Shown: positions 1-37,178 of the stretch, piece after piece | Layout of the letters: every line of letters starts with the position of its first letter | Position numbering within the stretch: the first letter of the stretch is position 1 | Virus record (IMG/VR): IMGVR_UViG_3300000062_000013 | Location: 1-37,178 of that record | DNA from: a virus | DNA: 37,178 bases | Direction: 5' to 3' (one strand) | The notes under the pieces: model-generated | What the model saw: the letters and a program-made list of their open reading frames with translations, nothing else | The model's database searches: none | Told to the model about the DNA's origin: nothing | Translations under genes and position numbers: made by a program

Positions 1-79
1 CGGCGGTGGTGGGGGCGGCGGCGGATTTTCTGGCGGTGGTGGGGGCGGTGGCTCCGGAAGTGGTAGCGGCGAAGTTATT
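1..79. repeat. Terminal overlap, identical to 37100..37178
   Basis: Base-by-base comparison gives 79/79 identity. The repeat is inside, and in phase with, the tape-measure coding frame. Confidence 0.95.
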
Positions 80-523
80 TATGCAGGAACAGGTTTTGGA
101 TATGACGCGAGAAGCGGAAATTACATAAATGCGAAAACAGGCACCGAAGTTTCAGCTTCTACTATTTCTTCCCGTAATGATTTGGCTAAACTTAAACATT
201 TACATACTGGCGGAATCGTTGAGGGTAGAGAGGGGCAAGAAGTGCCTATTATGGCTCTTGGTGGCGAAATGGTTTTAACCAAAGACGACCAAAGAGAAAT
301 ATTTAAAGGTACTGGAAAATCGGTAGTAGGTGGCGGCAGTAACGGCTTAATGTCAAATGTTGAGGATGTTGTAAACCGTATGCAGAACGCTCTTTTAGCA
401 GCTTTTGAAATGGCAAATATCAATGTATCCGTTAATAATGTTTTAGAACTTGACGGCGAAACGTTAGCAAGAAACATTAGAAAACCGTTAAATAAAGAAA
501 ATTCAAGATTCGGGAGAACTTAA
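2..523 (+). CDS. Tail tape measure protein, C-terminal portion (same gene as 35289..37178, joined across the circular junction)
   Basis: The frame is open from base 2 and in phase with the ORF opening at 35289 once the 79-bp terminal overlap is collapsed. A Gly-rich run is followed by HTGGIVEGREGQEVPIMALGGEMVLTKDDQ, a motif I recognise from tape-measure C-termini. TAA at 521..523. Lies directly upstream of the tail-tip genes. Confidence 0.8.
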   Translation, partial: GGGGGGGGFSGGGGGGGSGSGSGEVIYAGTGFGYDARSGNYINAKTGTEVSASTISSRNDLAKLKHLHTGGIVEGREGQEVPIMALGGEMVLTKDDQREIFKGTGKSVVGGGSNGLMSNVEDVVNRMQNALLAAFEMANINVSVNNVLELDGETLARNIRKPLNKENSRFGRT

Positions 524-524
524 T

Positions 525-893
525 ATGACGGAAATGTTATTAATTAATGGGCGACATATCGGCAAAATTGAATCTTTCGGCAGCGAAAAATATACGGAAG
601 AAAGAGAAATGACAACGGTAAGCGGTCGCTTGGTAACGGATATTGTATATGAAAAATATAAATTCAATGTTACTTACCGTTTTTTAACGGATGAGGAATT
701 AACATTTTTAATTAATGCGATAAAAAATAAAGTGTTTACTGCTACATTTTTGGATAAAGAAACGCTCCAAAAAATTAGTCGTCAATGTTATTTATCGCCG
801 CCCAATAATATCCGAATCGGGGACGGTTTCGATATTGAAACGCGATTATGGGACCGTTTAACATTTTCGGCAGTTGCTACCGAAGCGGAATAA
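525..893 (+). CDS. Tail component in the distal-tail-protein (Dit) position; function by synteny only
   Basis: ATG is 1 nt after the tape-measure stop, giving a 122-aa ORF. Its position immediately after the tape measure is the only functional evidence. Confidence 0.6.
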   Translation: MTEMLLINGRHIGKIESFGSEKYTEEREMTTVSGRLVTDIVYEKYKFNVTYRFLTDEELTFLINAIKNKVFTATFLDKETLQKISRQCYLSPPNNIRIGDGFDIETRLWDRLTFSAVATEAE

Positions 894-901
894 GTGATAA
901 A

Positions 902-2723: not shown

Positions 2724-3128
2724 ATGATAGATTGGCTTACAGCTGACGAATTTAAAACGATGTTTCCCAGTACTGAAATATCGGAAGATGATTTTAAAGT
2801 TTTCAAAGATTCGGCAACAGAGGACATTAATTTTATAACTTCGGATAAAATTATTAAACTTGGTTTTGATAATTTAGAATCATGGGTACAGCACCGTATC
2901 AAGCGAGCTATCGCGTATCAAATTTTATTTTATAATGATAATGGCGGACTTGACGGCATGACGGAAGAAGATTATAATTCGGCTTCGGTCGGTTCTTTTT
3001 CTATTTCACAGGGCGGCAGTTCGCCAAATATTTCGCCGTTTATAATAAACGGCAGGCGAGCTCATCCAAAAATTAAAGAACTTCTCATGACAACGAATTT
3101 ATTAAACGCTGCTGTAAATGGAATTTAA
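2724..3128 (+). CDS. Hypothetical tail-module protein
   Basis: 134-aa ORF co-oriented within the tail operon, TAA stop. Contains one copy of the genome-wide palindrome (3036..3052), translated as SPFIING. Confidence 0.6.
   Translation: MIDWLTADEFKTMFPSTEISEDDFKVFKDSATEDINFITSDKIIKLGFDNLESWVQHRIKRAIAYQILFYNDNGGLDGMTEEDYNSASVGSFSISQGGSSPNISPFIINGRRAHPKIKELLMTTNLLNAAVNGI
3036..3052. repeat. Palindrome copy P1, CCGTTTATAATAAACGG (19-bp palindrome with flanks 3035..3053), inside a CDS
   Basis: Read directly. Lies within 2724..3128. Confidence 0.95.
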
Positions 3129-3142: not shown

Positions 3143-4765
3143 ATGGCAACCGTAAACGATTACGATTCTTTGGCTCTTGCGCTTCATTATGATTCTATCC
3201 ATAATGTCAGCAAATCATTGCCGCATAATCCTGCCGCTTCGGGTTGGAATGACATTTCTGGTAATAATAGAAATGGAACGTTTGCCACAAGCGGTTTTGA
3301 ATGGATTGATGAAAAAGGATTAAGATTCAACGGCGGGCAACGCTTAACATATTCAGCTTCGGGAATAACGATTAACCGAAGTTATACAATGTCGGTTTTA
3401 TTTAAACCCGTATTTGTTGGCTCATATCCACGTTTATTTGCAGAAAATACATTTCCCACGTTGTATTTAAGAACAAATGATTCTAATTTTACATACGGTG
3501 TTTATTCGCATGGTATTGATACCAATTATTTGGACCCGAACGGGCAACCAATTAGACCAATTGAAAACGATTGGAACCACGCTACCGTTGTTTATAATTA
3601 CGATACAAAAACTTTAAAACTTTATGTAAACGGTTTACTCGTTTCGACAAGAACAAATTTAACAACAACGGCAACGAATCAAAACATAGCTTATTTGGGT
3701 GCACGCTCTCAAAATGATAGATTTTTTACAGGTTCGATAAGTACCTTTATGCTATATGAAAGAGCGTTATCCGATACCGAAGTTTTAAATAATTATAAAA
3801 TCGATTATGAAAGATACGTAGTTGAGCCCGAACCCGAACCGCCAGAACCAATAACGGATACACCTATAAAAGTAATTGAAGGTATGTTTGAAAGTTCCCA
3901 AAATGGCTATGAGTGGGACATTTCTATTTTAAAATCTGAATTTTCAGAACGTCCGCCGTTTTTGATATTTTCAGATAATCAGAAAAATCCCCTTTATTTT
4001 AATCTCGAAAAAGAAACGGCAACAACATTATTTTATACCGTCCGTTTAAACGTTGTTGCCGGATTAAATGAAGTCTATATTTATGCTGCTGATAGCGATA
4101 AAAGCGATGAACGAAAAACATTTACAGAATTTACATCTTTTGCAAATGGGTTGCCGTGGGGTTGGCAAACAGCACCACACAGCGGCACATTATCAAGCCA
4201 AAATGATTTTAATAGTTTACAATGGGTTAATAATTTGGGTACTTTTTGGTTTGCAGAAAACGGATTTTTAAGACATCAAGGTGGCGATTCCTTTTTAAGA
4301 CCGCCTTTGCGCATGACGGAAGAAAGCAAGGGATTTACTTATGAATCGTTATTAGAATGTTTACCACATAACACTTATTGGATTTTTGGTTTCGGTTCAC
4401 GCAATACCAGTGCCGGAAATCATGCAGACGGTATTAATTGTAGAGATGCCTCAATGAGTGAGGTTTTTAATGCCATTAATGCCGTTTCATTTGGAAATTT
4501 CAATATTGAATCAACCCTTACAAAATTTGTTGCAGGTTTTTCCGTTTATGAAAACTCCGGAAAAGCGTATTTAATAAGAGAATCAACTTATACAAAATTC
4601 CAAAGTAACGAAGGCGTAAGAACTAATGACATTTCCCAAACGCGATTTTCTTTAAAATATTGGGGCGGTTATCAACAATCGCGTTGGTATTGGATGAGAA
4701 AAAGGCATAACCCGATACCGAACACGTTTATTATTAAAGATTATGAGCCCCCGATTCCCGAATAG
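3143..4765 (+). CDS. Tail fibre / receptor-binding protein with concanavalin-A-like (LamG) lectin domain; ends at an in-frame TAG
   Basis: ATG at 3143 is preceded by AAAAAGGTG. The N-terminal region (GLRFNGGQRLTY ... WNHATVVYNYDTKTLKLYVNGLLVS ... FMLYERALSDTEV) fits the Laminin_G_3 pattern common in phage fibres. An EPEPEPPEP linker follows. The apparent stop is TAG at 4763..4765, and the frame stays open into 4811..5206. Confidence 0.65.
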   Translation: MATVNDYDSLALALHYDSIHNVSKSLPHNPAASGWNDISGNNRNGTFATSGFEWIDEKGLRFNGGQRLTYSASGITINRSYTMSVLFKPVFVGSYPRLFAENTFPTLYLRTNDSNFTYGVYSHGIDTNYLDPNGQPIRPIENDWNHATVVYNYDTKTLKLYVNGLLVSTRTNLTTTATNQNIAYLGARSQNDRFFTGSISTFMLYERALSDTEVLNNYKIDYERYVVEPEPEPPEPITDTPIKVIEGMFESSQNGYEWDISILKSEFSERPPFLIFSDNQKNPLYFNLEKETATTLFYTVRLNVVAGLNEVYIYAADSDKSDERKTFTEFTSFANGLPWGWQTAPHSGTLSSQNDFNSLQWVNNLGTFWFAENGFLRHQGGDSFLRPPLRMTEESKGFTYESLLECLPHNTYWIFGFGSRNTSAGNHADGINCRDASMSEVFNAINAVSFGNFNIESTLTKFVAGFSVYENSGKAYLIRESTYTKFQSNEGVRTNDISQTRFSLKYWGGYQQSRWYWMRKRHNPIPNTFIIKDYEPPIPE

Positions 4766-4810
4766 GATTTTATACCAATCCGTTTTTGGACTGGCACAAG
4801 AACCGATTAT

Positions 4811-5206
4811 GTGAATGCGGAAGATTATAATAGAATTTCCAATAACATAGCCATAGTTAATGAAATTTATTCACGCCTCGGATATGTCGGCGAGCTCCGA
4901 CCAATGCGATGCGATTGGGATATATACCCCCTATGCATGACTTTTAAACAGTATTGGGCGAATATGCGCTTAAACATACAGGACCTTTACTTAATGTTTC
5001 CGTATGCTAAAATTTTTCCAAACGCTCCCCTGTATCCGTTATTTAATCCGCCTGGGGTTTTAAATCCTGTGGAAAGATTAACGGCAGACTTATTAAACGC
5101 TATGGAAATTACGCTTAAAAATTTATATGAATTTTCAATATCATTTGACCGCTTACCGATTTTACTTACAGAAAACCGTATGCGTCAAAGAATTGTTAGG
5201 AAGTGA
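4811..5206 (+). CDS. Tail-fibre C-terminal segment; probably the read-through continuation (from 4766) of 3143..4765 rather than an independent gene
   Basis: Same frame as 3143..4765 with no stop between 4766 and 4810. The only candidate start is a GTG with no SD. The FWTGTRTDYVNAEDYNRISNN motif (the DxNRIxxN type seen in Firmicutes-phage fibre proteins) begins upstream of that GTG. Confidence 0.55.
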   Translation: MNAEDYNRISNNIAIVNEIYSRLGYVGELRPMRCDWDIYPLCMTFKQYWANMRLNIQDLYLMFPYAKIFPNAPLYPLFNPPGVLNPVERLTADLLNAMEITLKNLYEFSISFDRLPILLTENRMRQRIVRK

Positions 5207-5212: not shown

Positions 5213-7141
5213 ATGACAGATAGCTATAATAACCGATTTCAAGATGAAATATTATCGCCTGCTGAGCCAATATATGATATAAAAAAAGTATCGGATAACA
5301 GCATAATTTTAGAAGATATTCAATTATTGCTTAAAAACACTATCGTGCAAGAGGGCAATTTTTTGAATGCAGCTGTCATGAATAATATTCTTGGTCGCAT
5401 TAATGCAAATTCTAAAAATTTAGCTTCGGTAATGTTAATTGTAAATAGTATGCGTCGCATACAATCCTCCGGTACGGATAATCTTGAAATAACAGGAATC
5501 AATGACGAAACCGATTTATTTATGAAAAACAATCATTCAGATTTTGGAATTTTAGCAGCAAACGTATCAGCAGGTATAAATCAAATTAAAATAATTAACG
5601 CTAGCGGTTTTAGATTTAATTCTTCATTTGATATTAATGTTCAAAGCTCTAATTCTTTTAATCAAGTATCAGTAAAAGTTGGGAATTTTATTGCATTAAA
5701 TAAAGCTGTTATTGATGTTATAAATAATGCTTTAAACAGAAGCATTCAATGGTGTTATGGAAAAATAGGTGTTAATTCAATATTGGAAGGCGGTATTTCA
5801 ACTGACCAAACTACAACTGAAAAATTAAATTTAATAAATCTTTTAACAAATACGAACGTCCAAGTTTTTCCAATACCAAGATATGTCGCTATTAGAATTT
5901 ATGATGAAGAGGATAAATGTGCATACGCATTAGGGTTTATTTATAACCAATATAATAACGCAGTTATGTGGAAAACAAATCAAATATCTGAAAATCAAAC
6001 GTCATTCACAAATACGCAAATAGCAACGCTTAATGGTTTTGGGTTAAATAACAATTTTTCGGATTATTCAAACTCCGCACAGGCTTTTTATAATATTTTT
6101 CCTTTAAAACCGAAAGGTGTCAAAGCAGCTTATAATTTCGCTCTTGATATAACGCAAGCGTCAACGGGATGGGCGGTTTGGTCGTGGGATAATAATTATA
6201 CAACATTTACAAAAACATCATTAGCGATTAGGACAACAACACAAAACCAATCTCATTTTAAAGGTTTTATAAAAGTATCGACTAATTATATCGCTTGTAT
6301 TGAGGGAATTTTATACAAATTCAAATCGCTTGCAAATGGAAAATTAGATGTATCTTCGCCGTATGAAATTTTGACAATTCCATTTTTAAACGGTCGAACG
6401 ATTAATAATATTTCTTTAACTGACAATGTTGCATTTATATATGGTACAAATTCGTTATTAGCTTACTCTTTGGATGGTGTAAATTGGACGGAAATCATAA
6501 TGAATAACGATTCGTTAAAAAATACAAACTATTTTACTGGAATATATGTAATTGAAGATAATTCAATTTATGTGTCTACTCAACATCCTACGCAATCATC
6601 AAGGCAACAAATTTTTAAATATGAATCTTTCAATCCCGAAAATTTCAAAAATAAAAAATATGTTTTAAATACCGAACCCGTTTTAATTAATTCGGTTTCG
6701 TTGGTTGCAAATGACATTATTTTAGGCCTGAATTCGTCATTATTGCAAAATCATACGCAAGGGGAATTATTAAGAAGAACGAATAATTCAACGATTCCGC
6801 CGAACTCGAAAGTAAATGTAACCGTTGAAATTGAAAATTTATTTTCGCATAACGCCGTCGTTTTATTCCCGCAATTCACGAATTTACAAAATGTATCAAT
6901 CGACGCAGAAATTTCACATCGGAATAATATTAATGAATTGGAAAATTTTGAAAATATTCCGCTTGTTCACGAAATAGAATTAAATGCAGATTGGCGCGAA
7001 CAAACATATTATCTTAATTTTCCAAATGAATCTTCTATTTTCGCGGCTTCATTTACGGTTACAAATAATAATGAATTTGCAATAGAATTGTTTCAATTGA
7101 TAGCGATTTTATACGATGAAATTTATGATACAGGGGTATAA
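5213..7141 (+). CDS. Large tail fibre / host-recognition protein, possible beta-propeller with an Asp-box-like motif
   Basis: 642-aa ORF with SD AGGAAGTGA upstream. Asn/Ser-rich. YSLDGVNWTEI resembles a BNR/Asp-box, one residue short of consensus. Sits at the distal end of the tail module. Confidence 0.6.
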   Translation: MTDSYNNRFQDEILSPAEPIYDIKKVSDNSIILEDIQLLLKNTIVQEGNFLNAAVMNNILGRINANSKNLASVMLIVNSMRRIQSSGTDNLEITGINDETDLFMKNNHSDFGILAANVSAGINQIKIINASGFRFNSSFDINVQSSNSFNQVSVKVGNFIALNKAVIDVINNALNRSIQWCYGKIGVNSILEGGISTDQTTTEKLNLINLLTNTNVQVFPIPRYVAIRIYDEEDKCAYALGFIYNQYNNAVMWKTNQISENQTSFTNTQIATLNGFGLNNNFSDYSNSAQAFYNIFPLKPKGVKAAYNFALDITQASTGWAVWSWDNNYTTFTKTSLAIRTTTQNQSHFKGFIKVSTNYIACIEGILYKFKSLANGKLDVSSPYEILTIPFLNGRTINNISLTDNVAFIYGTNSLLAYSLDGVNWTEIIMNNDSLKNTNYFTGIYVIEDNSIYVSTQHPTQSSRQQIFKYESFNPENFKNKKYVLNTEPVLINSVSLVANDIILGLNSSLLQNHTQGELLRRTNNSTIPPNSKVNVTVEIENLFSHNAVVLFPQFTNLQNVSIDAEISHRNNINELENFENIPLVHEIELNADWREQTYYLNFPNESSIFAASFTVTNNNEFAIELFQLIAILYDEIYDTGV

Positions 7142-7143
7142 AA

Positions 7144-7416
7144 ATGGTCGATTTTCTTGGAAAACCTAAAATGAAAAATAATTTTTTAAGAAAAGGAATA
7201 GGCTCCGCTGTTAGTGAAAATGAAATTTTCCAATACGCAGTGGATAATATTATTTATAAATCCAAAAATGATATTATTTTAAGCGAACATTATAATCCGA
7301 TTCAGGCGAAAGGTTTATTTGAAAAATACAAAAAATCATTAGCGGAATCCGCTAATATTCCTTTGCATTATTCATTATTAAATAAATTATTTCCAGAATC
7401 GTTAATGAGAAAATGA
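7144..7416 (+). CDS. Hypothetical protein, last gene of the tail operon
   Basis: 90-aa ORF with SD AGGGG upstream and a TGA stop. Followed by the terminator-like palindrome at 7426..7455. Confidence 0.55.
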   Translation: MVDFLGKPKMKNNFLRKGIGSAVSENEIFQYAVDNIIYKSKNDIILSEHYNPIQAKGLFEKYKKSLAESANIPLHYSLLNKLFPESLMRK

Positions 7417-7425
7417 TTTTCTTTT

Positions 7426-7455
7426 AATCCGTTTATTATAAACGGATTCTTTTTT
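7426..7455 (+). terminator. Palindrome copy P2 extended to a 23-bp palindrome (AATCCGTTTATTATAAACGGATT) plus T-run; intrinsic-terminator-like
   Basis: Core at 7429..7445, flanking arms at 7426..7448, then C + T6 (7450..7455). Starts 10 nt after the TGA of the last tail gene. Confidence 0.7.
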
Positions 7456-7550
7456 ATATTCGCTATATTTATATATATACTTTTTTCGCTGTTACTCTAC
7501 ATTAACAGATAAAAATTTATGCACAGAAACATAGTATTTATATACTAAAA

Positions 7551-7591
7551 TGTAAAGTTTATGAAGTGCATAAAGTTTATATAGTTTAAAC
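7551..7591. promoter_or_regulatory. AT-rich border motif, copy A (TAAAGTTTATGAAGT + ATAAAGTTTATATAGTTTAAAC)
   Basis: Lies in the 7417..7632 intergenic region upstream of the rightward early cluster. The plus strand carries TATAGT. Confidence 0.4.
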
Positions 7592-7632
7592 GCTTTATTC
7601 TAATTGTTGAGAAATCAACAGGAAATAAAATC

Positions 7633-7761
7633 ATGACAAAATACAGCGAATCAATGACAGTAGCCGAAGTTGAAAACCATTTGAACAGAATTACAAACGA
7701 TTATTCCGTTTCATATTCCGAAGCAAGAGATATGTTTATTGGAATGGAAATGGATATTTAA
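7633..7761 (+). CDS. Small hypothetical protein (42 aa), below the ORF-track cutoff
   Basis: Translated by hand as ATG..TAA, giving MTKYSESMTVAEVENHLNRITNDYSVSYSEARDMFIGMEMDI. Its TAA overlaps the AAGGAG SD of the next gene. It is the first ORF after the 7417..7632 control region. Confidence 0.45.
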   Translation: MTKYSESMTVAEVENHLNRITNDYSVSYSEARDMFIGMEMDI

Positions 7762-7773
7762 GGAGCGGTCGCA

Positions 7774-8022
7774 ATGAAAATCCAAAAAGGAACAATCGGA
7801 TACCGAGCAGCTATATTAAAAACTTTAACCGCTGACGAAAAGCAAGAATATGATAATCTCCAAAAAGAGATAATCGGAATGAGTAAACCCGAAAATATGA
7901 AAAAAGGATATATGACTGCCGGCGGCAGATATTTAACAGCGTCAGAAGCTTACAAATATTTAACGGACCGCGAACATGAAATTGAACAAATCGCTGAAAA
8001 ACGATATGAGGAGATGATTTAA
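7774..8022 (+). CDS. Hypothetical early protein
   Basis: 82-aa ORF with a strong SD (TAAGGAGC) 8 nt upstream. Confidence 0.6.
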   Translation: MKIQKGTIGYRAAILKTLTADEKQEYDNLQKEIIGMSKPENMKKGYMTAGGRYLTASEAYKYLTDREHEIEQIAEKRYEEMI

Positions 8023-8238
8023 ATGAAGTTTTCAAAATCAAAAATGATTGCCCGATTAATTAAAGAAGGGAAAAGAGAATCGATAACGGACGAAGTCCTT
8101 AAAATCATGGATGATTTGGACGGTCAAGAAGCCGTTATAAGCAAATGGGATAAAATGATATACGGGCGAATTAGTTTAGTATGTACAGGAAAAAGCGGAA
8201 CTGTTCAGCCTGTACATTCCGATGATACGGAGCCATGA
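8023..8238 (+). CDS. Hypothetical early protein
   Basis: 71-aa ORF. Its ATG abuts the upstream TAA, suggesting coupled translation. Confidence 0.55.
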   Translation: MKFSKSKMIARLIKEGKRESITDEVLKIMDDLDGQEAVISKWDKMIYGRISLVCTGKSGTVQPVHSDDTEP

Positions 8239-8243
8239 TTTGA

Positions 8244-8630
8244 ATGAAAATCATTAATTTTTTGGTTGGAAAAGAACCGTCAGTTATTGAAATTGACGGC
8301 GATTTAAAATCTATGCAAGCTACCGTAGGCGGTTATATCCAAGCCGTATATATAAATCATCCTTTCGTTATCGTTTGCGATGAAGAAGGATTATTAAAAC
8401 AAAAATGGCATAATCGAACAATCCCTATCAGAGGACAGACTTTTGGTATTCCGATTCATGGCGATTTTTTTATTTGTAAAATCGATATTGAAAACGAATT
8501 TACAGGAATTGATTTGGAAATTACGGCAACGGCTGACGAAATCAGAAAATATTTAAAAGAAAACGATGTTTATTTTACTGCTCTTACAGAATCGTATGCG
8601 GCAAAAGTAGAAAAGGAGATGAAAAAATGA
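8244..8630 (+). CDS. Hypothetical protein, DUF3846-like (tentative)
   Basis: 128-aa ORF. The pattern LKSMQATVGGYIQAV ... VIVCDEEGLLK ... GDFFICK resembles what I remember of DUF3846. Not verified. Confidence 0.5.
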   Translation: MKIINFLVGKEPSVIEIDGDLKSMQATVGGYIQAVYINHPFVIVCDEEGLLKQKWHNRTIPIRGQTFGIPIHGDFFICKIDIENEFTGIDLEITATADEIRKYLKENDVYFTALTESYAAKVEKEMKK

Positions 8631-8815
8631 ATGAAAAAAAATATTACAGTACGGGCGAAGTTGTAACAGCCCTTGACGGTTTAATAAGTCAAGGGCATTT
8701 AATTTTATTATGTCATCAAGGCAAAATAAAAGCGGTTCGGCGTAACGAAAAAGGGGCGCATTTTAAAATCCCTGCCGATGAATTGGAACGATTAAAAAAA
8801 GAATATGGAGTTTAA
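8627..8815 (+). CDS. Excisionase/MerR-type helix-turn-helix DNA-binding protein
   Basis: 62-aa ORF with an ATGA overlap onto the upstream gene. YSTGEVVTAL ... GKIKAVRRNEKGAHFKIPADELERL fits the HTH_17 (excisionase-family) pattern. Confidence 0.55.
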   Translation: MNEKKYYSTGEVVTALDGLISQGHLILLCHQGKIKAVRRNEKGAHFKIPADELERLKKEYGV

Positions 8816-8818
8816 AAA

Positions 8819-9637
8819 ATGTCTGGGCTTAACGCTTTTCAATATATGGGCAGTAAATTAAATACGCTGCCTTTCCTGTATCGGAATTTTCCAAAAAATT
8901 ACCAAAAAATGCATTTCGTTGATGTGTTCGGCGGTTCCGGAGTTGTAACATTTAATAAGCCGCTGTCGGCTTTGGAAACCTACAACGATTTAAATTCAAA
9001 TGTGGTTCGCTTCTTTACGATTTTAAGAGAAGATTACGAAACCGCAATAAACGCTATCGGATACACGCCTTTTAATAGGGAAGAATACGATATAGCGGCA
9101 AAAACATTATCGGGGGGGGGCGGTACAGAATTAAGCGATTCAGACTTTGCCCGCTATTGGTATCTGCTTTTTAATGGTTCTTTTAACGGTAGCATTGAAC
9201 AAGGCGGCAGTTTTAAAACAATCATCGACCCGAACGGAGCGAATCCTGCCGTTAATTATTTTAACAAACAAAAGAAGTTAAAAGAAATTTCAAAACGGTT
9301 ATCAGCTGTTCAAATTGAAAATAAACCTTATTCGTATATTTTGCAAAAATACGATAGGGAAAGTACTTTTTTTTATTGCGACCCTCCTTATGTTTTGGAA
9401 ACGCGAACGGATAAAACGATTTATAAAAGATTCGATTTCACCGACAACGACCAAAAGAGATTTTTGAAACAAGTAAAAGCATTATCGGGCAAAGTCATGG
9501 TTTCAAATTATGATAATGATTTATACAACGATTCGTTATTGGATGACGGTTGGAGAAAATTGGCAGATAAAGAAAAAGTTATTGCCAGCTCAAAATTAAG
9601 GCGGTCGCAATCCGAAATAATCTATGTGAATTATTAA
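8819..9637 (+). CDS. DNA N6-adenine methyltransferase, D12 (Dam) class
   Basis: Three motifs fit the Dam/D12 class: N-terminal FQYMGSKLN, the AdoMet motif VDVFGGSGVV, and the catalytic FFYCDPPYV (DPPY). Carries a G9 homopolymer at 9112..9120. Confidence 0.8.
   Translation: MSGLNAFQYMGSKLNTLPFLYRNFPKNYQKMHFVDVFGGSGVVTFNKPLSALETYNDLNSNVVRFFTILREDYETAINAIGYTPFNREEYDIAAKTLSGGGGTELSDSDFARYWYLLFNGSFNGSIEQGGSFKTIIDPNGANPAVNYFNKQKKLKEISKRLSAVQIENKPYSYILQKYDRESTFFYCDPPYVLETRTDKTIYKRFDFTDNDQKRFLKQVKALSGKVMVSNYDNDLYNDSLLDDGWRKLADKEKVIASSKLRRSQSEIIYVNY
9112..9120 (+). repeat. G9 homopolymer inside the methyltransferase gene
   Basis: Reads tcg ggg ggg ggc ggt, encoding SGGGG. It is the longest G run I saw in this AT-rich genome. 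Confidence 0.9.
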
Positions 9638-22110: not shown

Positions 22111-22115
22111 ATATC

Positions 22116-22558
22116 GTAAGGAGTGTAAGGATTTTGTAAGGTAATTTTCGTTATTGGGAGAAGTTCCTTACAGACCTTACAAACATTACAGTATAAAATA
22201 GTATATTGTCTATATTACCTTATATGCTAACATAGAGTATATGTTGCTTTGCACAGAAACTAAATTGAAAAAATTCTGTAAGGTCTGTATGGAGTTCTCT
22301 TGGTATTGAAAATCACCTTACACTTTCTTACACTTTGATGTGTAAGGCGTTTTAAAAATCAAATCAAATCAAATCAAATCATAAAAAAAAGTTTGTTTTT
22401 AGGATACTAATAGTACCTATAGTCTTTAGAATGAAAATTATTGTCAATAATGCGTTTTGCAAATTTTTGAAAAAGGGGCTTAAATTTATGTGTTTTTATA
22501 CTCATAAAATTCTGTAAGGTTTGTAAGGAATGTTTATCGCTGACGTTTTTTCCTTACA
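22116..22558. repeat. Iteron-like cluster of TGTAAGG / CCTTACA heptamers (candidate origin or operator array)
   Basis: Ten perfect copies. Forward copies: 22124, 22135, 22277, 22341, 22513, 22522. Reverse copies: 22166, 22175, 22316, 22552. Also GTAAGG at 22116 and several one-mismatch copies. The 15-mer AAAATTCTGTAAGGT occurs twice (near 22270 and 22507). The region has no ORF of 60 aa or more. Confidence 0.7.
22356..22380. repeat. Pentanucleotide microsatellite (AAATC)x5
   Basis: Read directly. Followed by AT, so it ends in AAATCAT, the heptad repeated in the 28-mers at 25020 and 29575. Confidence 0.95.
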
Positions 22559-23076
22559 ATATTCATAAATCGCTATGGGGCTGATAACTGTTATTTTTTG
22601 GCAATTTTTGATTTTTCAATTTTACTTTTTTTGCTTTTGTGATTCTTTGGCAATTTTAAAATCGTCCAAACGGTCCAAAAACAAGGCTAAAATGAACGAA
22701 TATGATTTAATATAGTTTTGTATGACTTAATCGCCGAACACTTGCCAGCTGTCAGCAATGCAATTTCGTTATTTGGAAAGGTTGTTTAAAAACGATAGCG
22801 GAAAACGTAAAAGATAAGAGCCGAATAAAACAATAAATTTATATATCATATATGCGTATAGTAACGTGCTGTAAAGTTCCAAATCTTTCTTGCTTTAGAT
22901 TCGGATACCCTCTCAAAAAAGTCATGATTGCCGCTGTTGTTTTTCAGATGATGACAGCGGTTCAAACTTATCAAAAACGATAACAGCAAACACCTTTTGT
23001 TTTCAAAACCTCCATTTTTATTTTTTTCAATATCTTTAAATAGTTCTGCCGCTTATTCTTTTTTGGTGATTTTAAA

Positions 23077-23547
23077 ATGAATGAATTTCTTTTAAAACTG
23101 TTTAAACCGATTGCAAAAGCAGTCGCCGCAGACCGCCGCGAACATTGGGCAAAACGCCTTGACAGCGGCGGACGGATTACATCCCGCGAATTGAAAGACG
23201 CAACGAATAACCGCGTTATGTTGCGAACAGCCGATACCGAATATAAAATTATTTCATATCCGGCATTTTTAGAATATATCCGAGAAGATGATACGGCAGA
23301 CTTTGTTTATCAGCCGGAAGGCGTTTTTGATTGCGACAATTTCGGCGCCGTTTTCGATGGTCGTATTAAAGAAATGGGCAATTTCAGTTGCGGGCGTATT
23401 CATGGCTATTTTACATGGGTAGAGGGCTATCACGAATGCAATTTAATTTATACGACAATGGGCTACATTTTATATGAGCCGCAGAACCGCAAAATTTACC
23501 GTTTTGATGAAGATATGACCCGCATTTCCGAAGTCGCTTTAATGTAA
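23077..23547 (+). CDS. Hypothetical protein (orphan, locally G+C-rich); possible Cys/His papain-like fold, speculative
   Basis: 156-aa ORF with GGTGA SD. VFDCDNFGAVF ... GYHECNLIY is loosely reminiscent of transglutaminase/NlpC-type Cys-His cores. Two 60-nt lines I counted (23101..23220) each have 32/60 G+C, well above the rest of the genome. Confidence 0.55.
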   Translation: MNEFLLKLFKPIAKAVAADRREHWAKRLDSGGRITSRELKDATNNRVMLRTADTEYKIISYPAFLEYIREDDTADFVYQPEGVFDCDNFGAVFDGRIKEMGNFSCGRIHGYFTWVEGYHECNLIYTTMGYILYEPQNRKIYRFDEDMTRISEVALM

Positions 23548-28406: not shown

Positions 28407-29177
28407 ATGTCCCCTGGTTTAGAATTTTACGATTTGACCGTTCAGGCAGAAATTTATGATGTCATTGCCGATATTGAAAATGGTATGCTTATGAATATTG
28501 GAAAAGTATTTAGAAGCAATAAAAACGATATCGGCAGCGTTCAATGGGAAATAGAAAAATTATCAATGGCGGGCAGACTTACGCGGTCAAATTTAAATGT
28601 GATAGCGGCAAACGCTGACAGGTCCTATAAAGCTATTGAAAAAGAATTTATCGCTATGGGGCATACTGTTATAAAAAATAATACAGCTTTATTAAAAAAT
28701 ACCGTATCAGTCGGTAATATGCAAGCTGTGGATAATATCGCAAAAGCGTATGCGAAAAACGCGTACAGCGGCGTTAATTTATCCAATACGGCGGCATTAC
28801 AGGCTGCCAATCGCGAATTTATAAACGTTGTAAATAAAACTGTCGTTTCGGTATCTCGCGACATTGTAACACCGCAAGAAGCTTTAAAACAGGCATTAAG
28901 CGACTTAGGCGGTAGCGGTTTAAAAATTGATTATGTAAGTGAAAGTGGGCGACGCACTAGCACTACTTTGGATGTTGCCGTTAGGCGTGATATAAGAACG
29001 ACATCGGCACAGGTTAGTCGTGAAATTCAACTTTCCAAAAATGAAGAATGGGGGGTTGATTTAATTGAAATTTCCAGTCATTACGGAGCCCGTCCGAAAT
29101 GTGAAGAATGCCAAGGGAAAATATATTCGCTATCGGGACAATCTACAAAATACCCAGCGTTTTCAGAATCGACATAG
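28407..29177 (+). CDS. Minor capsid / head-morphogenesis protein (Phage_min_cap2 / SPP1 gp7-like), N-terminal part ending at an in-frame TAG
   Basis: Sits directly after the portal gene. Ends ...SSHYGARPKCEECQGKIYSLSGQSTKYPAFSEST then TAG at 29175..29177. The conserved block continues in the same frame downstream. Confidence 0.7.
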   Translation: MSPGLEFYDLTVQAEIYDVIADIENGMLMNIGKVFRSNKNDIGSVQWEIEKLSMAGRLTRSNLNVIAANADRSYKAIEKEFIAMGHTVIKNNTALLKNTVSVGNMQAVDNIAKAYAKNAYSGVNLSNTAALQAANREFINVVNKTVVSVSRDIVTPQEALKQALSDLGGSGLKIDYVSESGRRTSTTLDVAVRRDIRTTSAQVSREIQLSKNEEWGVDLIEISSHYGARPKCEECQGKIYSLSGQSTKYPAFSEST

Positions 29178-29483
29178 GGCGAACCCGATGGGCTTTTCGG
29201 TATCAATTGCAGGCATACATTTTATCCGTTTGTGGACGGCGTTAGCTCGCAACGTAATTTTCCGGTAGATGAAGAAGAAAACAAACGTATTTATGCTGAA
29301 AGTCAAATGCAGCGCTCGCTTGAGCGTGATATTCGTTCTGCAAAGCGTGAAGAATTAACTTTGAAGGCTGCCGGCATTGATTCATCGGCGGCTCATCAAC
29401 GCGTAAAAGAAACACAGGCGGATATGCGCAAATTTGTAAATGAAACAGGGCGAACCCGTGAACGGACCCGCGAATTAATTTAA
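29178..29483 (+). CDS. C-terminal continuation of the minor capsid / head-morphogenesis protein (ORF track lists 29232..29483 from a GTG)
   Basis: Same frame as 28407..29177 with no further stop. 29178 onward reads GEPDGLFGINCRHTFYPFVDGVSSQRNFP. This is the conserved GLxGxNCRH core of the family, and it lies upstream of any possible start codon. Confidence 0.65.
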   Translation, partial: GEPDGLFGINCRHTFYPFVDGVSSQRNFPVDEEENKRIYAESQMQRSLERDIRSAKREELTLKAAGIDSSAAHQRVKETQADMRKFVNETGRTRERTRELI

Positions 29484-29737: not shown

Positions 29738-30349
29738 ATGGCAGAACCTCAACCACCACAACCCCCAGAACCGCCTAAACCACCTCAACCGCCCGAACCT
29801 CCGGCACCGCCTAAACCACCTCAACCGCCCGAACCTCCGGCACCGCCAGAGCCACCTCAACCGCCCGAACCCGAAAAAAAATCATATTCGCAAGCTGAGC
29901 TTGACGCAATGGTTGAAAGGGGAAAAGCGCAAGAACGCAAAAAGTTTGAAAAAAACCAATTGCCAGAGGACCAATTAAAGAAATTCCAAGAGTGGCAAAA
30001 GACACAAAAGACACCCGAAGAATTGAAAGCGGAAGAACTCATGCAGAAAACGCAAGCCGAAAATGATTTGAAAAAGAAATCGTTGGACCTTGACCGTAAA
30101 ATTGCATTAATTGATTTGGGCATTACGGACAAAGACAACCGTATATTAATTTCTGTTTTGGCAGAAAGAGAAATGAAAGCAGGCGATGACGAAGAAGCCT
30201 TTAATAAATATGCGGCTGCTGCGTGGGAAAAGTTCAAAGACAAACTCGGCGATGACAAACTGGCAAGCGGACAAGGACAAGGGAGAAAAGTTCCGCCCGC
30301 TGCCGATACCAGAACCGATACACATAATAAACTTTATCCGAAAAAATAA
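29738..30349 (+). CDS. Scaffolding protein (DUF4355-like) with N-terminal proline-rich repeat
   Basis: Sits immediately before the major capsid gene. Charged, helical K/E-rich body. N-terminal PQPPEPPxPP repeats are encoded by a 36-bp tandem repeat. Confidence 0.6.
   Translation: MAEPQPPQPPEPPKPPQPPEPPAPPKPPQPPEPPAPPEPPQPPEPEKKSYSQAELDAMVERGKAQERKKFEKNQLPEDQLKKFQEWQKTQKTPEELKAEELMQKTQAENDLKKKSLDLDRKIALIDLGITDKDNRILISVLAEREMKAGDDEEAFNKYAAAAWEKFKDKLGDDKLASGQGQGRKVPPAADTRTDTHNKLYPKK
29771..29872 (+). repeat. 36-bp tandem repeat, 2.8 copies, encoding PPKPPQPPEPPA
   Basis: 29771..29806 and 29807..29842 are identical. A diverged partial third unit runs to 29872. Lies inside the scaffold gene. Confidence 0.9.
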
Positions 30350-33400: not shown

Positions 33401-33405
33401 AACTC

Positions 33406-34622: not shown

Positions 34623-34643
34623 TAAAGTCCAGGAATAACGAAA

Positions 34644-35270
34644 ATGAGCGATATTTTAAAGCACGGAATTAAAGAAGAAATTTTATTTTACGGTCGCCCC
34701 TATACGCTTTATTTTTCTTTTAATCGGGTTTTAAATTCAATTTTCGTTATGAGTAACCCTGTTTTTTTGGAAGAAGATAAGATTAAAATTTCTTTTAATA
34801 ATTTGTTTAATTACAAAAGCGACAGCGAGAACCGTAAAAAAATAGACGAATTATCTTTTGATTTAAAAAAAATGTTTATCGCTTATGTTTTTGATATGTA
34901 TGTTAAAGAACAAGATGAAAAAACATATATTGTAAGTCCGGCTAATCCTATTTTTGATATTGAGCAGGACATTAAACTGGTATATGTTTCATTCGTTGAG
35001 GCTTACAATATCGATTTATCCAAAGAAAACGATAAACTTTCATGGCGAAAATTCCAAACGTTATTAAAAGAGTTACCGCCTGAATGTGCTTTGAATAGAA
35101 TTATTAAACAATATCGTCAAGCTAAGCCGCCGCGGGTGGAAGATTTTAAAAATTATGACGATTACGCCAATGCCCGCAATAATATAAAACGTTACGCAAT
35201 TAAATCGCCAGCTTACGATAAAGAGAAAATTAAATATATTCAAAGTGTAGTTCAGAAACGCCGTTTATAA
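34644..35270 (+). CDS. Gp15-like tail assembly protein (tentative)
   Basis: 208-aa ORF directly upstream of the tape measure. The N-terminal pattern ILFYGRPYTLYFSFNRVL resembles Phage_Gp15 as I recall it. Its TAA lies inside the palindrome at 35261..35277. Confidence 0.5.
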   Translation: MSDILKHGIKEEILFYGRPYTLYFSFNRVLNSIFVMSNPVFLEEDKIKISFNNLFNYKSDSENRKKIDELSFDLKKMFIAYVFDMYVKEQDEKTYIVSPANPIFDIEQDIKLVYVSFVEAYNIDLSKENDKLSWRKFQTLLKELPPECALNRIIKQYRQAKPPRVEDFKNYDDYANARNNIKRYAIKSPAYDKEKIKYIQSVVQKRRL

Positions 35271-35277
35271 TAAACGG
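35261..35277. repeat. Palindrome copy P13, CCGTTTATAATAAACGG
   Basis: Contains the TAA of the Gp15-like gene. Its right arm runs into the GGGAGG SD of the tape-measure gene. Confidence 0.95.
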
Positions 35278-35288
35278 GAGGTGTTTTT

Positions 35289-37178
35289 ATGAGTGATTCC
35301 GACGGAAAAGTAACAATTGAAGTTATAGCCGATAATAAAAAAGCGCTGAAAACAATTCAAGAAACCAAAGAAACATATAAGAAAGGCGGCGCCGATATCG
35401 AAAAAGATTTTTCTGCAAATCTAAAAGATGTAGAAAAATCTTTTGAATCGTTAGGCGAAGAAGCTAATGATTCAATGGATAAAATTAATAGCGGCGGCAA
35501 TGAATCGAGCGACAAACTTAATAAAGTGATGACAGGCGCAACGGTTGCAATCGGCGCCGCATTTGCAGCTATGGCAGCTGTTGCGGTTGCTGCTTTGGTT
35601 CAAATTTCCAAAGAAAGTTTAAAACTTTTTGTGTCTTATGATGACGCTTTGAGAGAAATGCAAACCGAAATTGATATGAGTACAGCGGAGGGCGTTGCTG
35701 ATTTTGAACAATTGAAAGACGCAATTAGAGAAGTCGGCGTAACTACAAAATTCACAGCTTCCGAAGCGGCAGACGCAATGAATATTTTGGTAAGCGCGGG
35801 GTATAGTGCTGCTGATAGCGTTTATATGTTAAATGAAGCGGCTAAAATGGCAACCATTACTAAAATGAGTTTAGCCGATACCGTTAATTTATTGGATAAT
35901 TCGATTACCGTTTTGGGTTTAGACGCTTCACAAACAGGCGGATTCATTGATAAATTAGCTAAAGCTTCTTTGGACGGTAAAGCGTCAATGAGCGAACTTA
36001 GCGAATCTTTGGAAGGCGTTGGAACATTAATGAGCTCCGCAAACCAAGATATAGATAAAATGACTGCCGCTTTCGCTTTGTTATCAAATGAAAACATAAA
36101 AGGCGCTGAAGCAGCAGGCACCATGAAAAATCTTATTATTGGATTACAAAAACCGACAACCGAAGCGGCAGACAGTTTGAAAAAATTGGGCGTATCCGTT
36201 TATAACACAGACGGAACAATGCGCGACGTTTTGGATATTATAACAGATTTAAATACGGCTACGGCAGACTTGGACGCGAAAAGTAAAGATGATATCTTCA
36301 ATAATTTATTTTCAAAAAGGGACGTAGTTGCCGTTCAAGGTTTAATGCGTCAGATTGATAAAGATAGCGGGCAACTTTATACAAATCTCGTTGAAAATTC
36401 GGAAGGAGCCGCCGCTGCAATGGCTGAAACGTTAGAGGGCGGCGTTGGTGGATTAATTCGGTCATTTAAAGGTATGGCGGAAGAAATGAAATTAACAATA
36501 GGTGAGCCGCTAGCGGATATTATGAATGATATTTTACCAATTGTAAAAGAAGCGTTTAGCGAAATAATGACAGCCGTTAAAGGTTTCTTTGAAGCGTTTA
36601 CACCCGAACAAATGGAAGCGCTTAAAAACGCTATCGGTTATATTGTTGAATATGCGAAAATCGCTATATTGCATTTGATTAATATTGCAACCGTAATAAT
36701 TCCGTTGTTGGCTGACGGTTTTGTTTTAATTATGCGTTTAATTTCTCCAATTTTAGATATCGGGTTAAAGATTTTTAAATTATTGTCTGTCGGTATCGTT
36801 GAAGCGTATAAATTAGTGGCTTCTGCTGTTCGTTTATGGTGGAAACAAGTAAATGATTTATATACAGTAGTCAAACCCGCTTTAACTTTTGTTTATGATA
36901 TGTTAAATGTTATTTTGGATGAAATGACAAAAATTTACGATGTCGGCAAAAGTGTTTTAAGCGCTTTGGGATATGAATTTAAAGAAACTGAAACTTCAAT
37001 ATCAGGCGTAACCGAAGAAATACAAAATGTTAAAAATGAATTAACAGCCCTTGACGGAACAACTGCGAACGTTACGGTTAATACCAATTATTCAAGTTCC
37101 GGCGGTGGTGGGGGCGGCGGCGGATTTTCTGGCGGTGGTGGGGGCGGTGGCTCCGGAAGTGGTAGCGGCGAAGTTATT
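35289..37178 (+). CDS. Tail tape measure protein, N-terminal 630 codons (open at window end; continues at base 80 after collapsing the terminal overlap)
   Basis: ATG at 35289 with GGGAGG SD. No stop through 37178 (1890 nt, exactly 630 codons). Ala-rich helical and hydrophobic segments are typical of tape measures. Not in the ORF track because it has no stop inside the window. Confidence 0.8.
   Translation, partial: MSDSDGKVTIEVIADNKKALKTIQETKETYKKGGADIEKDFSANLKDVEKSFESLGEEANDSMDKINSGGNESSDKLNKVMTGATVAIGAAFAAMAAVAVAALVQISKESLKLFVSYDDALREMQTEIDMSTAEGVADFEQLKDAIREVGVTTKFTASEAADAMNILVSAGYSAADSVYMLNEAAKMATITKMSLADTVNLLDNSITVLGLDASQTGGFIDKLAKASLDGKASMSELSESLEGVGTLMSSANQDIDKMTAAFALLSNENIKGAEAAGTMKNLIIGLQKPTTEAADSLKKLGVSVYNTDGTMRDVLDIITDLNTATADLDAKSKDDIFNNLFSKRDVVAVQGLMRQIDKDSGQLYTNLVENSEGAAAAMAETLEGGVGGLIRSFKGMAEEMKLTIGEPLADIMNDILPIVKEAFSEIMTAVKGFFEAFTPEQMEALKNAIGYIVEYAKIAILHLINIATVIIPLLADGFVLIMRLISPILDIGLKIFKLLSVGIVEAYKLVASAVRLWWKQVNDLYTVVKPALTFVYDMLNVILDEMTKIYDVGKSVLSALGYEFKETETSISGVTEEIQNVKNELTALDGTTANVTVNTNYSSSGGGGGGGGFSGGGGGGGSGSGSGEVI
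37100..37178. repeat. Terminal overlap, identical to 1..79
   Basis: See 1..79. Confidence 0.95.

What the first reader, a model, noticed from the sequence alone, without database searches (positions are those of the whole stretch)
1..37178. TAG is never used as a convincing terminator; possible late-gene-restricted TAG recoding or programmed read-through without an encoded suppressor
I read the stop codon of all 50 CDS ends I annotated. The counts are 39 TAA, 9 TGA and 2 TAG. Both TAGs are the in-frame cases above, and both are in late structural genes. Stop-codon-recoded phages (TAG read as an amino acid, with recoded codons enriched in late genes) are established in gut metagenomes, but they usually carry a suppressor tRNA and often release-factor genes. 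I found no tRNA-like sequence in any intergenic region here. So this would be either a minimal, host-dependent variant or low-efficiency read-through that sets the dosage of two low-copy virion proteins.
Basis: partly seen in the sequence, partly recalled or inferred. Interest (0 to 1): 0.8.

Follow-up and report, generated by a model that had tools for sequence, protein, structure and literature searches.

The report
Sparse in-frame TAG codons, no suppressor tRNA
This complete 37-kb phage genome never ends a gene with TAG, yet carries two TAG codons inside late virion genes; relatives keep TAGs at fixed spots in essential late genes and none encodes a suppressor tRNA, so this looks like a sparse, unusual form of phage stop-codon recoding.

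Summary
An independent gene call gives 51 genes: 39 TAA, 10 TGA and 2 TAG. Both TAGs are in frame.

- **TAG 29175-29177** splits one Phage_min_cap2 domain, at a residue that is Tyr in most homologues.
- **TAG 4763-4765** lies in a Pro/Glu-rich linker between a LamG-type tail protein and a conserved 146-residue module.

Neither downstream piece has a ribosome-binding site or a nearby start codon. No tRNA was found, even with relaxed settings, and the genome is circular and complete.

Related low-GC phages from other metagenomes strengthen the case. The tail-junction TAG is kept in five deeply diverged lineages. Relatives also carry conserved in-frame TAGs in the large terminase and a Gp15-type tail protein, plus lineage-specific ones. 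None of about 140 longer ORFs in the clade convincingly ends in TAG, whereas more distant Clostridia phages use TAG for 12-27% of stops.

The TAG sites align with Lys, Arg, Tyr, Trp or Phe in homologues, never Gln.

I conclude that TAG is translated through in late genes by a factor supplied in trans. It probably acts as a weak, selected throttle or gate. This is a new variant of known stop-codon-recoded phages. The inserted residue, the read-through efficiency and the host are not resolved.

The parts
3143..4765 (+). Tail (receptor-binding-type) protein, 540 codons from ATG 3143 (a GTG at 3134 is also open). It has a LamG/concanavalin-like domain and ends in the Pro/Glu-rich linker ...YEPPIPE followed by TAG.
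   Evidence: Pfam Laminin_G_3, E=2.8e-20. Its C-terminal half is homologous to the proteins that precede the same TAG in L005, L008 and L010.
4763..4765 (+). In-frame TAG no. 1 (context GAA TAG GAT).
   Evidence: TAG sits at the same column, directly before [DE]FIP, in L004, L005/L007, L008 and L010. L003 has TGG there.
4766..5206 (+). A 146-codon conserved module (DFIPIRFW...DYNRISNN...MRCDWD...LLNAME...) ending in TGA. I read it as a C-terminal extension made by TAG read-through.
   Evidence: Homologues P0124-P0128. The module is a free-standing 160-aa gene with its own ribosome-binding site and ATG only in L003. Here the first start codon is GTG 4811, it has no ribosome-binding site, and it would cut off the conserved N-terminus.
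28407..29177 (+). Minor capsid protein 2 (SPP1 gp7-type head protein), N-terminal 256 codons.
   Evidence: PF06152 profile positions 11-255, E=6.5e-39.
29175..29177 (+). In-frame TAG no. 2 (context ACA TAG GGC), inside the PF06152 domain.
   Evidence: It aligns with Tyr in 17 of 20 distant homologues (2 Phe, 1 Lys, 1 Met). It also aligns with Tyr in clade relatives B, C and G.
29178..29483 (+). Minor capsid protein 2, C-terminal 101 codons, carrying the family's most conserved motif (GEPDGLFGINCRH), then TAA.
   Evidence: PF06152 profile positions 265-366, E=7.8e-28. The first start codon is GTG 29232, it has no ribosome-binding site, and it lies after the motif.
1..37178 (.). Complete circular phage genome (37,099 unique bases) with 49 TAA/TGA-terminated genes, no TAG-terminated gene and no tRNA.

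Best explanation
**What it is.** The window is a complete genome of about 37 kb. It belongs to a siphophage of a low-GC Firmicutes/Clostridia-type host. In this phage lineage UAG is not a reliable stop signal. In late (morphogenesis) mRNAs the ribosome reads through UAG and makes the full-length protein.

**What is inferred about the mechanism.**
- The phage has no tRNA gene, so the decoding activity must be supplied in trans. Candidates are a host amber-suppressing tRNA, or host near-cognate tRNAs (Lys, Tyr, Gln, Trp) competing with weak or inhibited release factor 1.
- Decoding is probably inefficient. Each TAG would then act as a selected throttle or gate on proteins needed in low copy number. 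In this phage those are a minor head protein and an extended isoform of a tail-tip protein. In relatives they are the large terminase and a Gp15-type tail protein.
- This would explain why there are only 2-5 TAGs per genome, why old ones are kept as TAG, and why all normal genes end in TAA or TGA.

**Shown here.**
- The TAGs lie inside continuous, homologous coding sequence.
- Three TAG positions are conserved across diverged lineages.
- TAG is absent as a terminator.
- tRNA genes are absent.
- Restart signals after the TAGs are absent.

**Inferred only.** That read-through happens in vivo, its efficiency, the residue inserted, and the source of the suppressor.
For: 1. **A single domain is split.** PF06152 matches profile positions 11-255 and 265-366 on the two sides of TAG 29175. 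The best 120 homologues listed are contiguous proteins, most of about 365 aa.
2. **The junction TAG is conserved.** It is kept in five lineages (window, L004, L005/7, L008, L010). Their DNA is barely alignable. Only 19% of invariant residues keep the same codon in all five.
3. **Relatives carry further conserved TAGs.**
   - In the large terminase, TAG sits at the same column in L014, L016 and L013. That column is Lys in about 26 of 30 full-length homologues.
   - In the Gp15-type protein, TAG sits at the same column in L005/7 and L008.
4. **There are lineage-specific TAGs.** They occur in a tail protein and in the tail-tip protein of L008, and in a TGT/DpdA-like gene of L013.
5. **Controls are clean.** Repeating the same homology-spanning test with TGA or TAA returns only ordinary gene boundaries and antisense artefacts.
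6. **TAG is not used as a stop.** No convincing TAG terminator occurs among about 140 ORFs of 80 aa or more in the clade. Distant relatives use TAG for 12-27% of stops, and phage CPD1 for 16%.
7. **Restart is unlikely.** Of the window's 49 genes, 41 have a GGAG-type ribosome-binding site and all start with ATG. The only start codons after the two TAGs are GTGs 16 and 18 codons downstream, without such a site. The first start codon after the junction TAG differs between lineages.
8. **The junction TAG sits in a linker.** The surrounding sequence is Pro/Glu-rich, like the interdomain linker inside the same protein.
9. **No tRNA anywhere.** None is found in the window or in any fetched locus.
10. 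**Literature.** Known TAG-recoded phages concentrate recoded stops in late genes. A suppressor tRNA was detected in only 40% of them (bioRxiv 10.1101/2021.08.26.457843).
Against: - There is no direct evidence of translation: no proteome data and no reporter assay.
- No suppressor or host was identified. Two scans of species-representative genomes found no close prophage.
- The window itself has only two sites. The min_cap2 TAG is unique to it and is one substitution from a Tyr codon, so taken alone it could be a plain nonsense mutation.
- The two assemblies that share it (JGI and ENA) may come from the same reads.
- TAG/CTA and CTAG are depleted in all frames. L003 has no TAG stops either, yet has no in-frame TAG. 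Terminator avoidance therefore does not prove altered decoding.
- No common sequence context or downstream RNA structure was found at the TAG sites.
- An N-terminal terminase fragment made in excess would seem wasteful if read-through is weak.
- The aligned residues (K, R, Y, W, F) do not point to one inserted amino acid.
Confidence: 0.62

Rival explanations
1. This is ordinary code-15-type reassignment. TAG is an efficient sense codon (Gln) read by a dedicated suppressor tRNA that was simply not seen. The tRNA could be non-canonical, or carried by a co-infecting relative or by the host.
For: TAG-recoded phages are established. A suppressor tRNA is detected in only 40% of them, and small (about 24 kb) recoded prophages exist in Oscillospiraceae. 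TAG is fully absent as a terminator here. About 11 kb of relative B and 3 kb of relative C were not retrieved, so a tRNA there cannot be excluded. The window and relative B come from neighbouring ENA samples.
Against: The window genome is complete and has no tRNA, even at relaxed thresholds. None of the seven TAG columns contains Gln in any homologue; they hold K, R, Y, W, F, S, M, I and L. Free neutral use of a sense codon should give many TAGs and exchange with synonymous codons. Instead there are 2-5 per genome, and the old ones are retained as TAG.
Confidence: 0.17
2. The genes are split. TAG is a true stop, and the downstream pieces are made separately by termination-reinitiation or a non-canonical start such as the ATA/ATC/ATT two codons after the junction TAG. 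The fragments work as separate subunits.
For: In L003 the 146-residue module is a free-standing 160-aa gene. TAGGA at most sites resembles a ribosome-binding core.
Against: The start codons after the TAGs are neither conserved nor canonical. AGGA lies only 4 nt from the Ile codon, and that codon varies (ATA, ATC, ATT). The min_cap2, terminase and Gp15 TAGs lie inside single domains that are contiguous in the full-length homologues aligned or in the few relatives available (Gp15). The residues right after the TAG are conserved as amino acids.
Confidence: 0.1
3. The phage is defective or decaying. The two TAGs are nonsense mutations in a non-viable variant, or they are assembly errors.
For: TAG 29175 is unique to this genome and one transversion from TAT/TAC. 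The window has only two sites.
Against: The junction TAG is shared by five lineages from different studies. Relatives keep TAG in the essential terminase. The genome has no frameshifts or other disruptions and otherwise has tight, intact gene packing. The same sequence appears in two assemblies. A defective genome would not explain the total lack of TAG terminators.
Confidence: 0.05

Closest known systems
Stop-codon-recoded (alternatively coded, 'code 15') phages: crAss-like, Lak, and the Garnet/Topaz prophages (Ivanova 2014; Borges et al. 2021/2022; Peters et al. 2022)
   Same: In-frame TAG in conserved phage genes. Concentration in late structural and packaging genes. TAG stops purged. Low GC. 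Hosts that presumably use the standard code. Many of these phages also lack a detectable suppressor tRNA.
   Different: Here there are only 2-5 TAGs per genome rather than dozens to hundreds. Three sites are positionally conserved across deep divergence. The aligned residues are Lys/Arg/Tyr/Trp/Phe, never Gln. A complete genome has no tRNA, release-factor or synthetase gene. The habitat is landfill or other non-gut metagenomes rather than gut.
Programmed stop-codon read-through in viruses (Qbeta A1 via UGA; MuLV gag-pol via UAG; tobamovirus replicase) - from general knowledge
   Same: A single conserved leaky stop yields a short product and a C-terminally extended product in a set ratio. The tail-junction TAG in a linker fits this pattern.
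   Different: Those cases are RNA viruses with defined stimulatory contexts or pseudoknots. No shared context or structure was found here. Several unrelated genes are affected, and some TAGs lie mid-domain where the short product is unlikely to be useful.
Programmed -1 frameshift of tail assembly chaperones gpG/gpGT (Xu, Hendrix & Duda 2004) - from general knowledge
   Same: Translational recoding sets the stoichiometry of low-copy tail-assembly proteins. In relatives B and C the Gp15-type protein just upstream of the tape-measure gene carries a conserved TAG about one third of the way in.
   Different: The event is read-through rather than a frameshift. The window's own Gp15 gene is uninterrupted.
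Ambiguous or reassigned UAG in pyrrolysine-decoding organisms ('Genetic Code 34' archaea; Pyl-using Firmicutes)
   Same: TAG is rare as a stop. In-frame TAGs behave like a one-codon family under purifying selection. Read-through and termination coexist.
   Different: No pyl genes or tRNA-Pyl occur in the phage. The host is unknown. The phage looks bacterial: GGAG ribosome-binding sites and Clostridia relatives. In bacteria Pyl is reported only in a few enzymes.
Laboratory amber (sus) phage mutants grown on suppressor hosts - from general knowledge
   Same: Nonsense codons in essential late genes are tolerated only when a host suppressor is present. TAGs are one substitution away from Tyr, Lys or Trp codons.
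   Different: These are natural metagenomic lineages, and their TAGs have been conserved over long divergence.

Membership tests
Stop-codon-recoded (TAG-sense) phages | In-frame TAG inside conserved protein-coding sequence, with homology continuing across the codon | tested here: met
   PF06152 is split at profile positions 255/265. Alignments span the TAG in min_cap2, the tail junction, the terminase, Gp15 and others.
Stop-codon-recoded (TAG-sense) phages | TAG not used as a terminator | tested here: met
   0 of 49 genuine stops in the window. No convincing TAG stop among ORFs of 80 aa or more in the clade. One or two small early ORFs in relative B may end in TAG.
Stop-codon-recoded (TAG-sense) phages | Marked gain in coding density or gene length when TAG is read as sense | tested here: inconclusive
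   Coverage by ORFs of 60 aa or more rises only from 31,893 to 32,271 nt, and two gene pairs merge. The effect is real but far smaller than in described recoded phages.
Stop-codon-recoded (TAG-sense) phages | Phage-encoded suppressor tRNA (CUA anticodon), and/or release factor or synthetase genes | tested here: not met
   ARAGORN at default and relaxed settings and Rfam find nothing. Pfam/PHROGs scans of 37 of the 51 window proteins (28 precomputed) show no translation factor. This feature is absent from about 60% of described members too.
Stop-codon-recoded (TAG-sense) phages | TAG aligns with Gln (code 15) | tested here: not met
   The TAG columns hold Tyr (min_cap2), Lys (terminase), Arg/Lys (Gp15), Trp (junction), Tyr/Ile/Met, Phe/Ser and Tyr. 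No Gln appears.
Stop-codon-recoded (TAG-sense) phages | Recoded stops enriched in late, structural or lysis genes | tested here: met
   Six of the seven distinct sites are in packaging, head or tail genes; the seventh is in a TGT/DpdA-like gene next to the packaging genes. None lies in the replication module.
Programmed stop-codon read-through | A specific stop conserved among relatives, followed by a conserved in-frame extension | tested here: met
   Junction TAG in five lineages, terminase TAG in three, Gp15 TAG in two.
Programmed stop-codon read-through | Stimulatory 3' context or RNA structure | tested here: inconclusive
   Five of seven sites have a purine after TAG, which is no more than expected for a first codon position. 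There is no shared downstream fold.
Programmed stop-codon read-through | Both the short and the extended product are made | not testable with these tools
   Needs proteomics or reporter assays.
Pyrrolysine decoding of UAG | tRNA-Pyl and pylS/pylBCD present in the translating cell | not testable with these tools
   They are absent from the phage. The host genome was not identified.
Pseudogenes / defective phage | Disruptions are random, mixed with frameshifts, and not conserved among relatives | tested here: not met
   Only TAG occurs in frame; there are no in-frame TAA or TGA codons. The TAG positions are conserved.

The most novel reading that the evidence does not exclude
This would be a tRNA-independent switch of the meaning of UAG. 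Either the phage disables or out-competes release factor 1 late in infection, or its Clostridia-type host has naturally ambiguous UAG, for example constitutive pyrrolysine decoding or a native amber suppressor. UAG in late mRNAs would then be read by near-cognate tRNAs (Lys, Tyr, Trp, Gln) or as Pyl. The phage lineage would have placed and kept single TAGs in terminase, minor head and tail genes as a translational gate on virion assembly. The TAG sites align with Lys, Tyr and Trp, which are exactly the residues whose tRNAs are near-cognate to UAG, and never with Gln. That fits this reading, although mutational proximity alone would also explain it.
Probability: 0.15. Interest if true: 0.85.

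Novelty: new variant of a known kind. Interest (0 to 1): 0.62.

Why it matters
Stop-codon recoding in phages is thought to evolve in steps: depletion of TAG stops, then acquisition of a suppressor tRNA, then spread of recoded stops through late genes.

This clade appears to sit at a sparse stage, and in a different order. TAG stops are already purged. A handful of TAGs are fixed in essential, low-copy late genes. A complete genome nevertheless has no suppressor tRNA, and the TAG sites do not look like Gln.

If the TAGs are read through, three things follow.
- Small phages can depend on a host-supplied or non-tRNA suppression activity.
- Individual amber codons can be maintained by selection as regulatory elements rather than as neutral synonymous codons.
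- Standard code-11 annotation of such phages silently breaks terminases, head proteins and receptor-binding proteins. Density-based detectors of alternative codes would miss them, because the gain in coding density here is only about 1%.

Tried and rejected
- **Close relatives in cultured phages.** Megablast of 12 kb against the GenBank phage collection found no match.
- **Relatives through min_cap2.** A scan of IMG/VR found none.
- **Homologues of the fused tail protein.** The protein database held only the window's own fragment.
- **Prophage relatives in named genomes.**
  - The scan with the 146-residue module found nothing.
  - The scan with the capsid found only distant prophages in Clostridia metagenome-assembled genomes. 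These have normal TAG use and no true in-frame TAG.
  - The host therefore stays unidentified.
- **Hidden suppressor tRNA.** Relaxed and mitochondrial ARAGORN modes gave only noise, with no CUA anticodon. Rfam at E<=1 gave two meaningless hits.
- **The 1.1-kb gene-free region 21932-23077.** I checked it as a possible RNA gene. It contains iteron-like GTAAGG repeats and looks like an origin or regulatory region.
- **Common context or RNA structure after the TAGs.** None found.
- **Ribosome hopping over the TAG.** Rejected, because the flanking codons do not match consistently.
- **Queuosine link.** Relatives B and G encode a TGT/DpdA-like protein. The window has no homologue, so this was dropped as a general mechanism.
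- **Structure of the 146-residue module.** The single-sequence model had pLDDT 40.6, too poor for a fold search.
- **The unsampled 11 kb of relative B.** An attempt to retrieve it through the SNF2 helicase returned only unrelated contigs.
- **Apparent extra TAG-ended ORFs.**
  - L014 1175-1741 is an antisense artefact.
  - L015 4394-4834 is a true gene boundary, with an ATG three codons downstream, in a 47% GC relative outside the clade.
- **Inferring the inserted amino acid.** The aligned columns gave no single answer.

Full report
**1. What the window is**

The first 79 nt equal the last 79 nt, so the window is a circular genome of 37,099 unique bases. It is the same phage as ENA contig ERZ27245258:k141_1692669, and differs only by one 36-nt repeat unit in the scaffold gene.

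The tape-measure gene (777 aa) runs across the window ends.

The gene order is:
- small and large terminase, SPP1-type portal, minor capsid protein 2, scaffold, major capsid, connectors, major tail protein, Gp15-type protein, tape measure and tail-tip genes on the + strand;
- a replication module on the - strand: DNA polymerase, ERF, ParB-like, HNH, SNF2 helicase and D5-type primase.

Of 49 genes, 41 have a GGAG-type ribosome-binding site, and all start with ATG.

The nearest cultured phages by capsid are Clostridium perfringens phages, at 41% identity. The nearest genomic relatives are prophages in Clostridia metagenome-assembled genomes. The host is therefore most likely a low-GC member of the Bacillota. 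It was not identified.

**2. The observation**

Mapping the ENA gene calls onto the window gives 51 genes: 39 TAA, 10 TGA and 2 TAG.

Both TAG-ended genes continue in frame, for 146 and 101 codons. ARAGORN at default and relaxed settings, and Rfam at E<=1, find no tRNA.

TAG makes up 12% of stop trinucleotides in the off-frames of the genes. Zero genuine TAG stops in 49 genes then has a probability of about 0.002.

**3. TAG 29175 lies inside a domain**

Pfam PF06152 (Phage_min_cap2) matches profile positions 11-255 upstream of the TAG and 265-366 downstream. The best 120 of 371 homologues are contiguous proteins, most of about 365 aa.

In an alignment of 20 homologues the TAG column is Tyr in 17, Phe in 2, and Lys and Met once each. 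It is followed at once by the family's most conserved motif, GEPDGLFGINCRH. Clade relatives B, C and G have Tyr there.

The first start codon after the TAG is a GTG 18 codons downstream. It has no ribosome-binding site and lies beyond the motif.

**4. TAG 4763 is a conserved junction**

The 146-residue downstream module has few homologues. I fetched their contigs.
- L004, L005/L006/L007 (one phage), L008/L009 and L010 all have TAG directly before [DE]FIP (TAG GAA TTT ATH CC). The proteins upstream differ, but each ends in a Pro/Glu/Asp-rich linker.
- Only L003 has the module as a free-standing 160-aa gene with its own ribosome-binding site and ATG. There the TAG-equivalent codon is TGG.

These lineages are so diverged that their DNA barely aligns. 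Only 19% of invariant residues keep the same codon in all five.

**5. More in-frame TAGs in relatives**

I ran a census that asks whether a homologue from another phage spans the stop codon. It found the following:
- **Large terminase:** TAG at the same column in L014, L016 and L013 (...GYIENL-TAG-KEY...).
- **Gp15-type protein:** TAG at the same column in L005/7 and L008.
- **L008 only:** TAGs in a 145-aa tail protein and near the N-terminus of the tail-tip protein.
- **L013 only:** a TAG in a TGT/DpdA-like gene.

The same census with TGA or TAA as the candidate codon returns only ordinary gene boundaries and antisense artefacts.

The terminase column is Lys in about 26 of 30 full-length homologues. 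Codon identity at invariant residues is 0.33 for the terminase in three lineages and 0.58 for Gp15 in two. Joint retention of TAG at the three old sites is therefore unlikely if TAG were just one of several synonymous codons.

**6. Terminator use in the clade and outside it**

In the low-GC clade, every TAG-ended ORF of 80 aa or more is either one of the in-frame cases or an antisense artefact.

Outside the clade, TAG is used normally:
- distant relatives in Clostridia metagenome-assembled genomes end 12-27% of such ORFs in TAG;
- C. perfringens phage CPD1 ends 11 of 67 genes in TAG;
- L015 has a normal TAG gene boundary.

Relative B may have one or two TAG-ended small early ORFs. That would fit standard decoding early in infection.

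**7. What residue is inserted?**

Across the seven distinct sites, the aligned residues in homologues are:

| Site | Aligned residues |
|---|---|
| min_cap2 (window) | Tyr |
| Large terminase | Lys |
| Gp15-type protein | Arg / Lys |
| Tail junction | Trp |
| 145-aa tail protein (L008) | Tyr / Ile / Met |
| Tail-tip N-terminus (L008) | Phe / Ser |
| TGT/DpdA-like gene (L013) | Tyr |

Gln never appears. That is unlike described code-15 phages, where TAG aligned best with Gln.

All the main residues are one substitution from TAG. The pattern may therefore reflect mutational origin rather than the decoded residue. The identity of the inserted residue stays open.

**8. Mechanism**

No suppressor tRNA, release factor or synthetase is encoded. 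No shared context or downstream structure was found.

Four features argue for read-through that is costly or regulated, supplied in trans, and used as a throttle or gate on late proteins:
- there are few sites;
- the sites are retained as TAG;
- they are restricted to proteins needed in low copy number;
- TAG is purged as a terminator.

The rivals are an undetected dedicated suppressor (classic reassignment), split genes with reinitiation, and a defective genome. I weigh each in the rival-explanations section.

TAG/CTA and CTAG are depleted in all frames, and L003 lacks TAG stops without having in-frame TAGs. This fits the published idea that depletion of TAG stops precedes recoding. It also means that terminator avoidance alone is weak evidence.

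**9. Comparison and verdict**

This is best filed as a sparse variant, without a suppressor tRNA, of stop-codon-recoded phages. Some sites also have features of programmed read-through, notably the tail junction and perhaps Gp15. It departs from the described kind on two features: an encoded suppressor tRNA (itself detected in only 40% of known members) and TAG aligning with Gln. I therefore call it a new variant rather than a plain member.

The efficiency of read-through, the residue inserted and the source of the suppressor remain to be tested.

Noticed in passing
window 1348, 3037, 7430, 11946, 15118, 16079, 18655, 20783, 22004, 23664, 26893, 29502, 31729, 35262: A perfect 15-bp palindrome, CGTTTATWATAAACG, occurs 14 times against 0.04 expected. 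Copies lie mostly between genes or at gene ends, for example between terminase and portal, just after the min_cap2 stop, and at the Gp15 stop. It contains TATAAT. It is absent from all relatives fetched. It could be a terminator hairpin, an operator or a small mobile palindrome.
   Followed up: partly
window 21932-23077: A 1.1-kb stretch has no called gene. It lies between the - strand replication genes to its left and a + strand 156-aa gene that starts at 23077. It is full of GTAAGG/CCTTAC iteron-like repeats plus an (AAATC)5 run, and looks like an origin of replication or a regulatory region.
   Followed up: partly
window 29746-29871: A 36-nt tandem repeat (3.5 copies) encodes a Pro-rich N-terminal stretch of the scaffold protein. 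The ENA assembly of the same phage has one copy fewer (191 vs 203 aa).
   Followed up: partly
whole window; L003, L013, L014, L016: The tetranucleotide CTAG is absent from about 60 kb of relatives B, C, D and G. It occurs only 12 times in the window, against 73 times in the similar-sized C. perfringens phage CPD1. TAG/CTA is among the most under-represented trinucleotides. This suggests avoidance of a CTAG-specific restriction system or a similar DNA-level pressure.
   Followed up: partly
L014 4057-4809; L013 1056-1823: Relatives B and G encode a TGT/DpdA-like protein (PHROG 'queuine tRNA-ribosyltransferase', E=7e-35) just upstream of the packaging genes. This hints at 7-deazaguanine DNA modification. 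The copy in G itself contains an in-frame TAG. The window has no homologue.
   Followed up: partly
L005 3760-4401; L008 3850-4518: In relatives B and C the Gp15-type protein just upstream of the tape-measure gene has a conserved TAG after about 77-85 codons. This would give a short and a long product, much like the gpG/gpGT frameshift pair of other siphophages. The window's own Gp15 gene (34644-35270) is uninterrupted.
   Followed up: partly
window 5213-9637: Pfam and PHROGs recognise no endolysin or integrase anywhere in the genome, and the only holin-family matches (Pfam Phage_holin_4_1; weak PHROG holin hit) fall on a 174-aa protein inside the tail gene block. The 642-aa protein after the tail module and several small ORFs have no family match. 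A D12-class adenine methyltransferase (8819-9637) ends the + strand block.
   Followed up: no
window 2724-3128: A 134-aa protein matching a 'head-tail adaptor' PHROG (E=1e-16) sits inside the tail-tip gene block, between the 611-aa protein and the LamG tail protein. This is an odd place for a connector. Relatives L003 and L005 lack a gene at that position.
   Followed up: no
window 1-79 and 37100-37178: The terminal 79-nt repeat lies inside a Gly-rich stretch of the tape-measure protein (GGGGGGGGFSGGGGGGGSGSGSG). The assembler broke the circle in a low-complexity coding repeat.
   Followed up: yes
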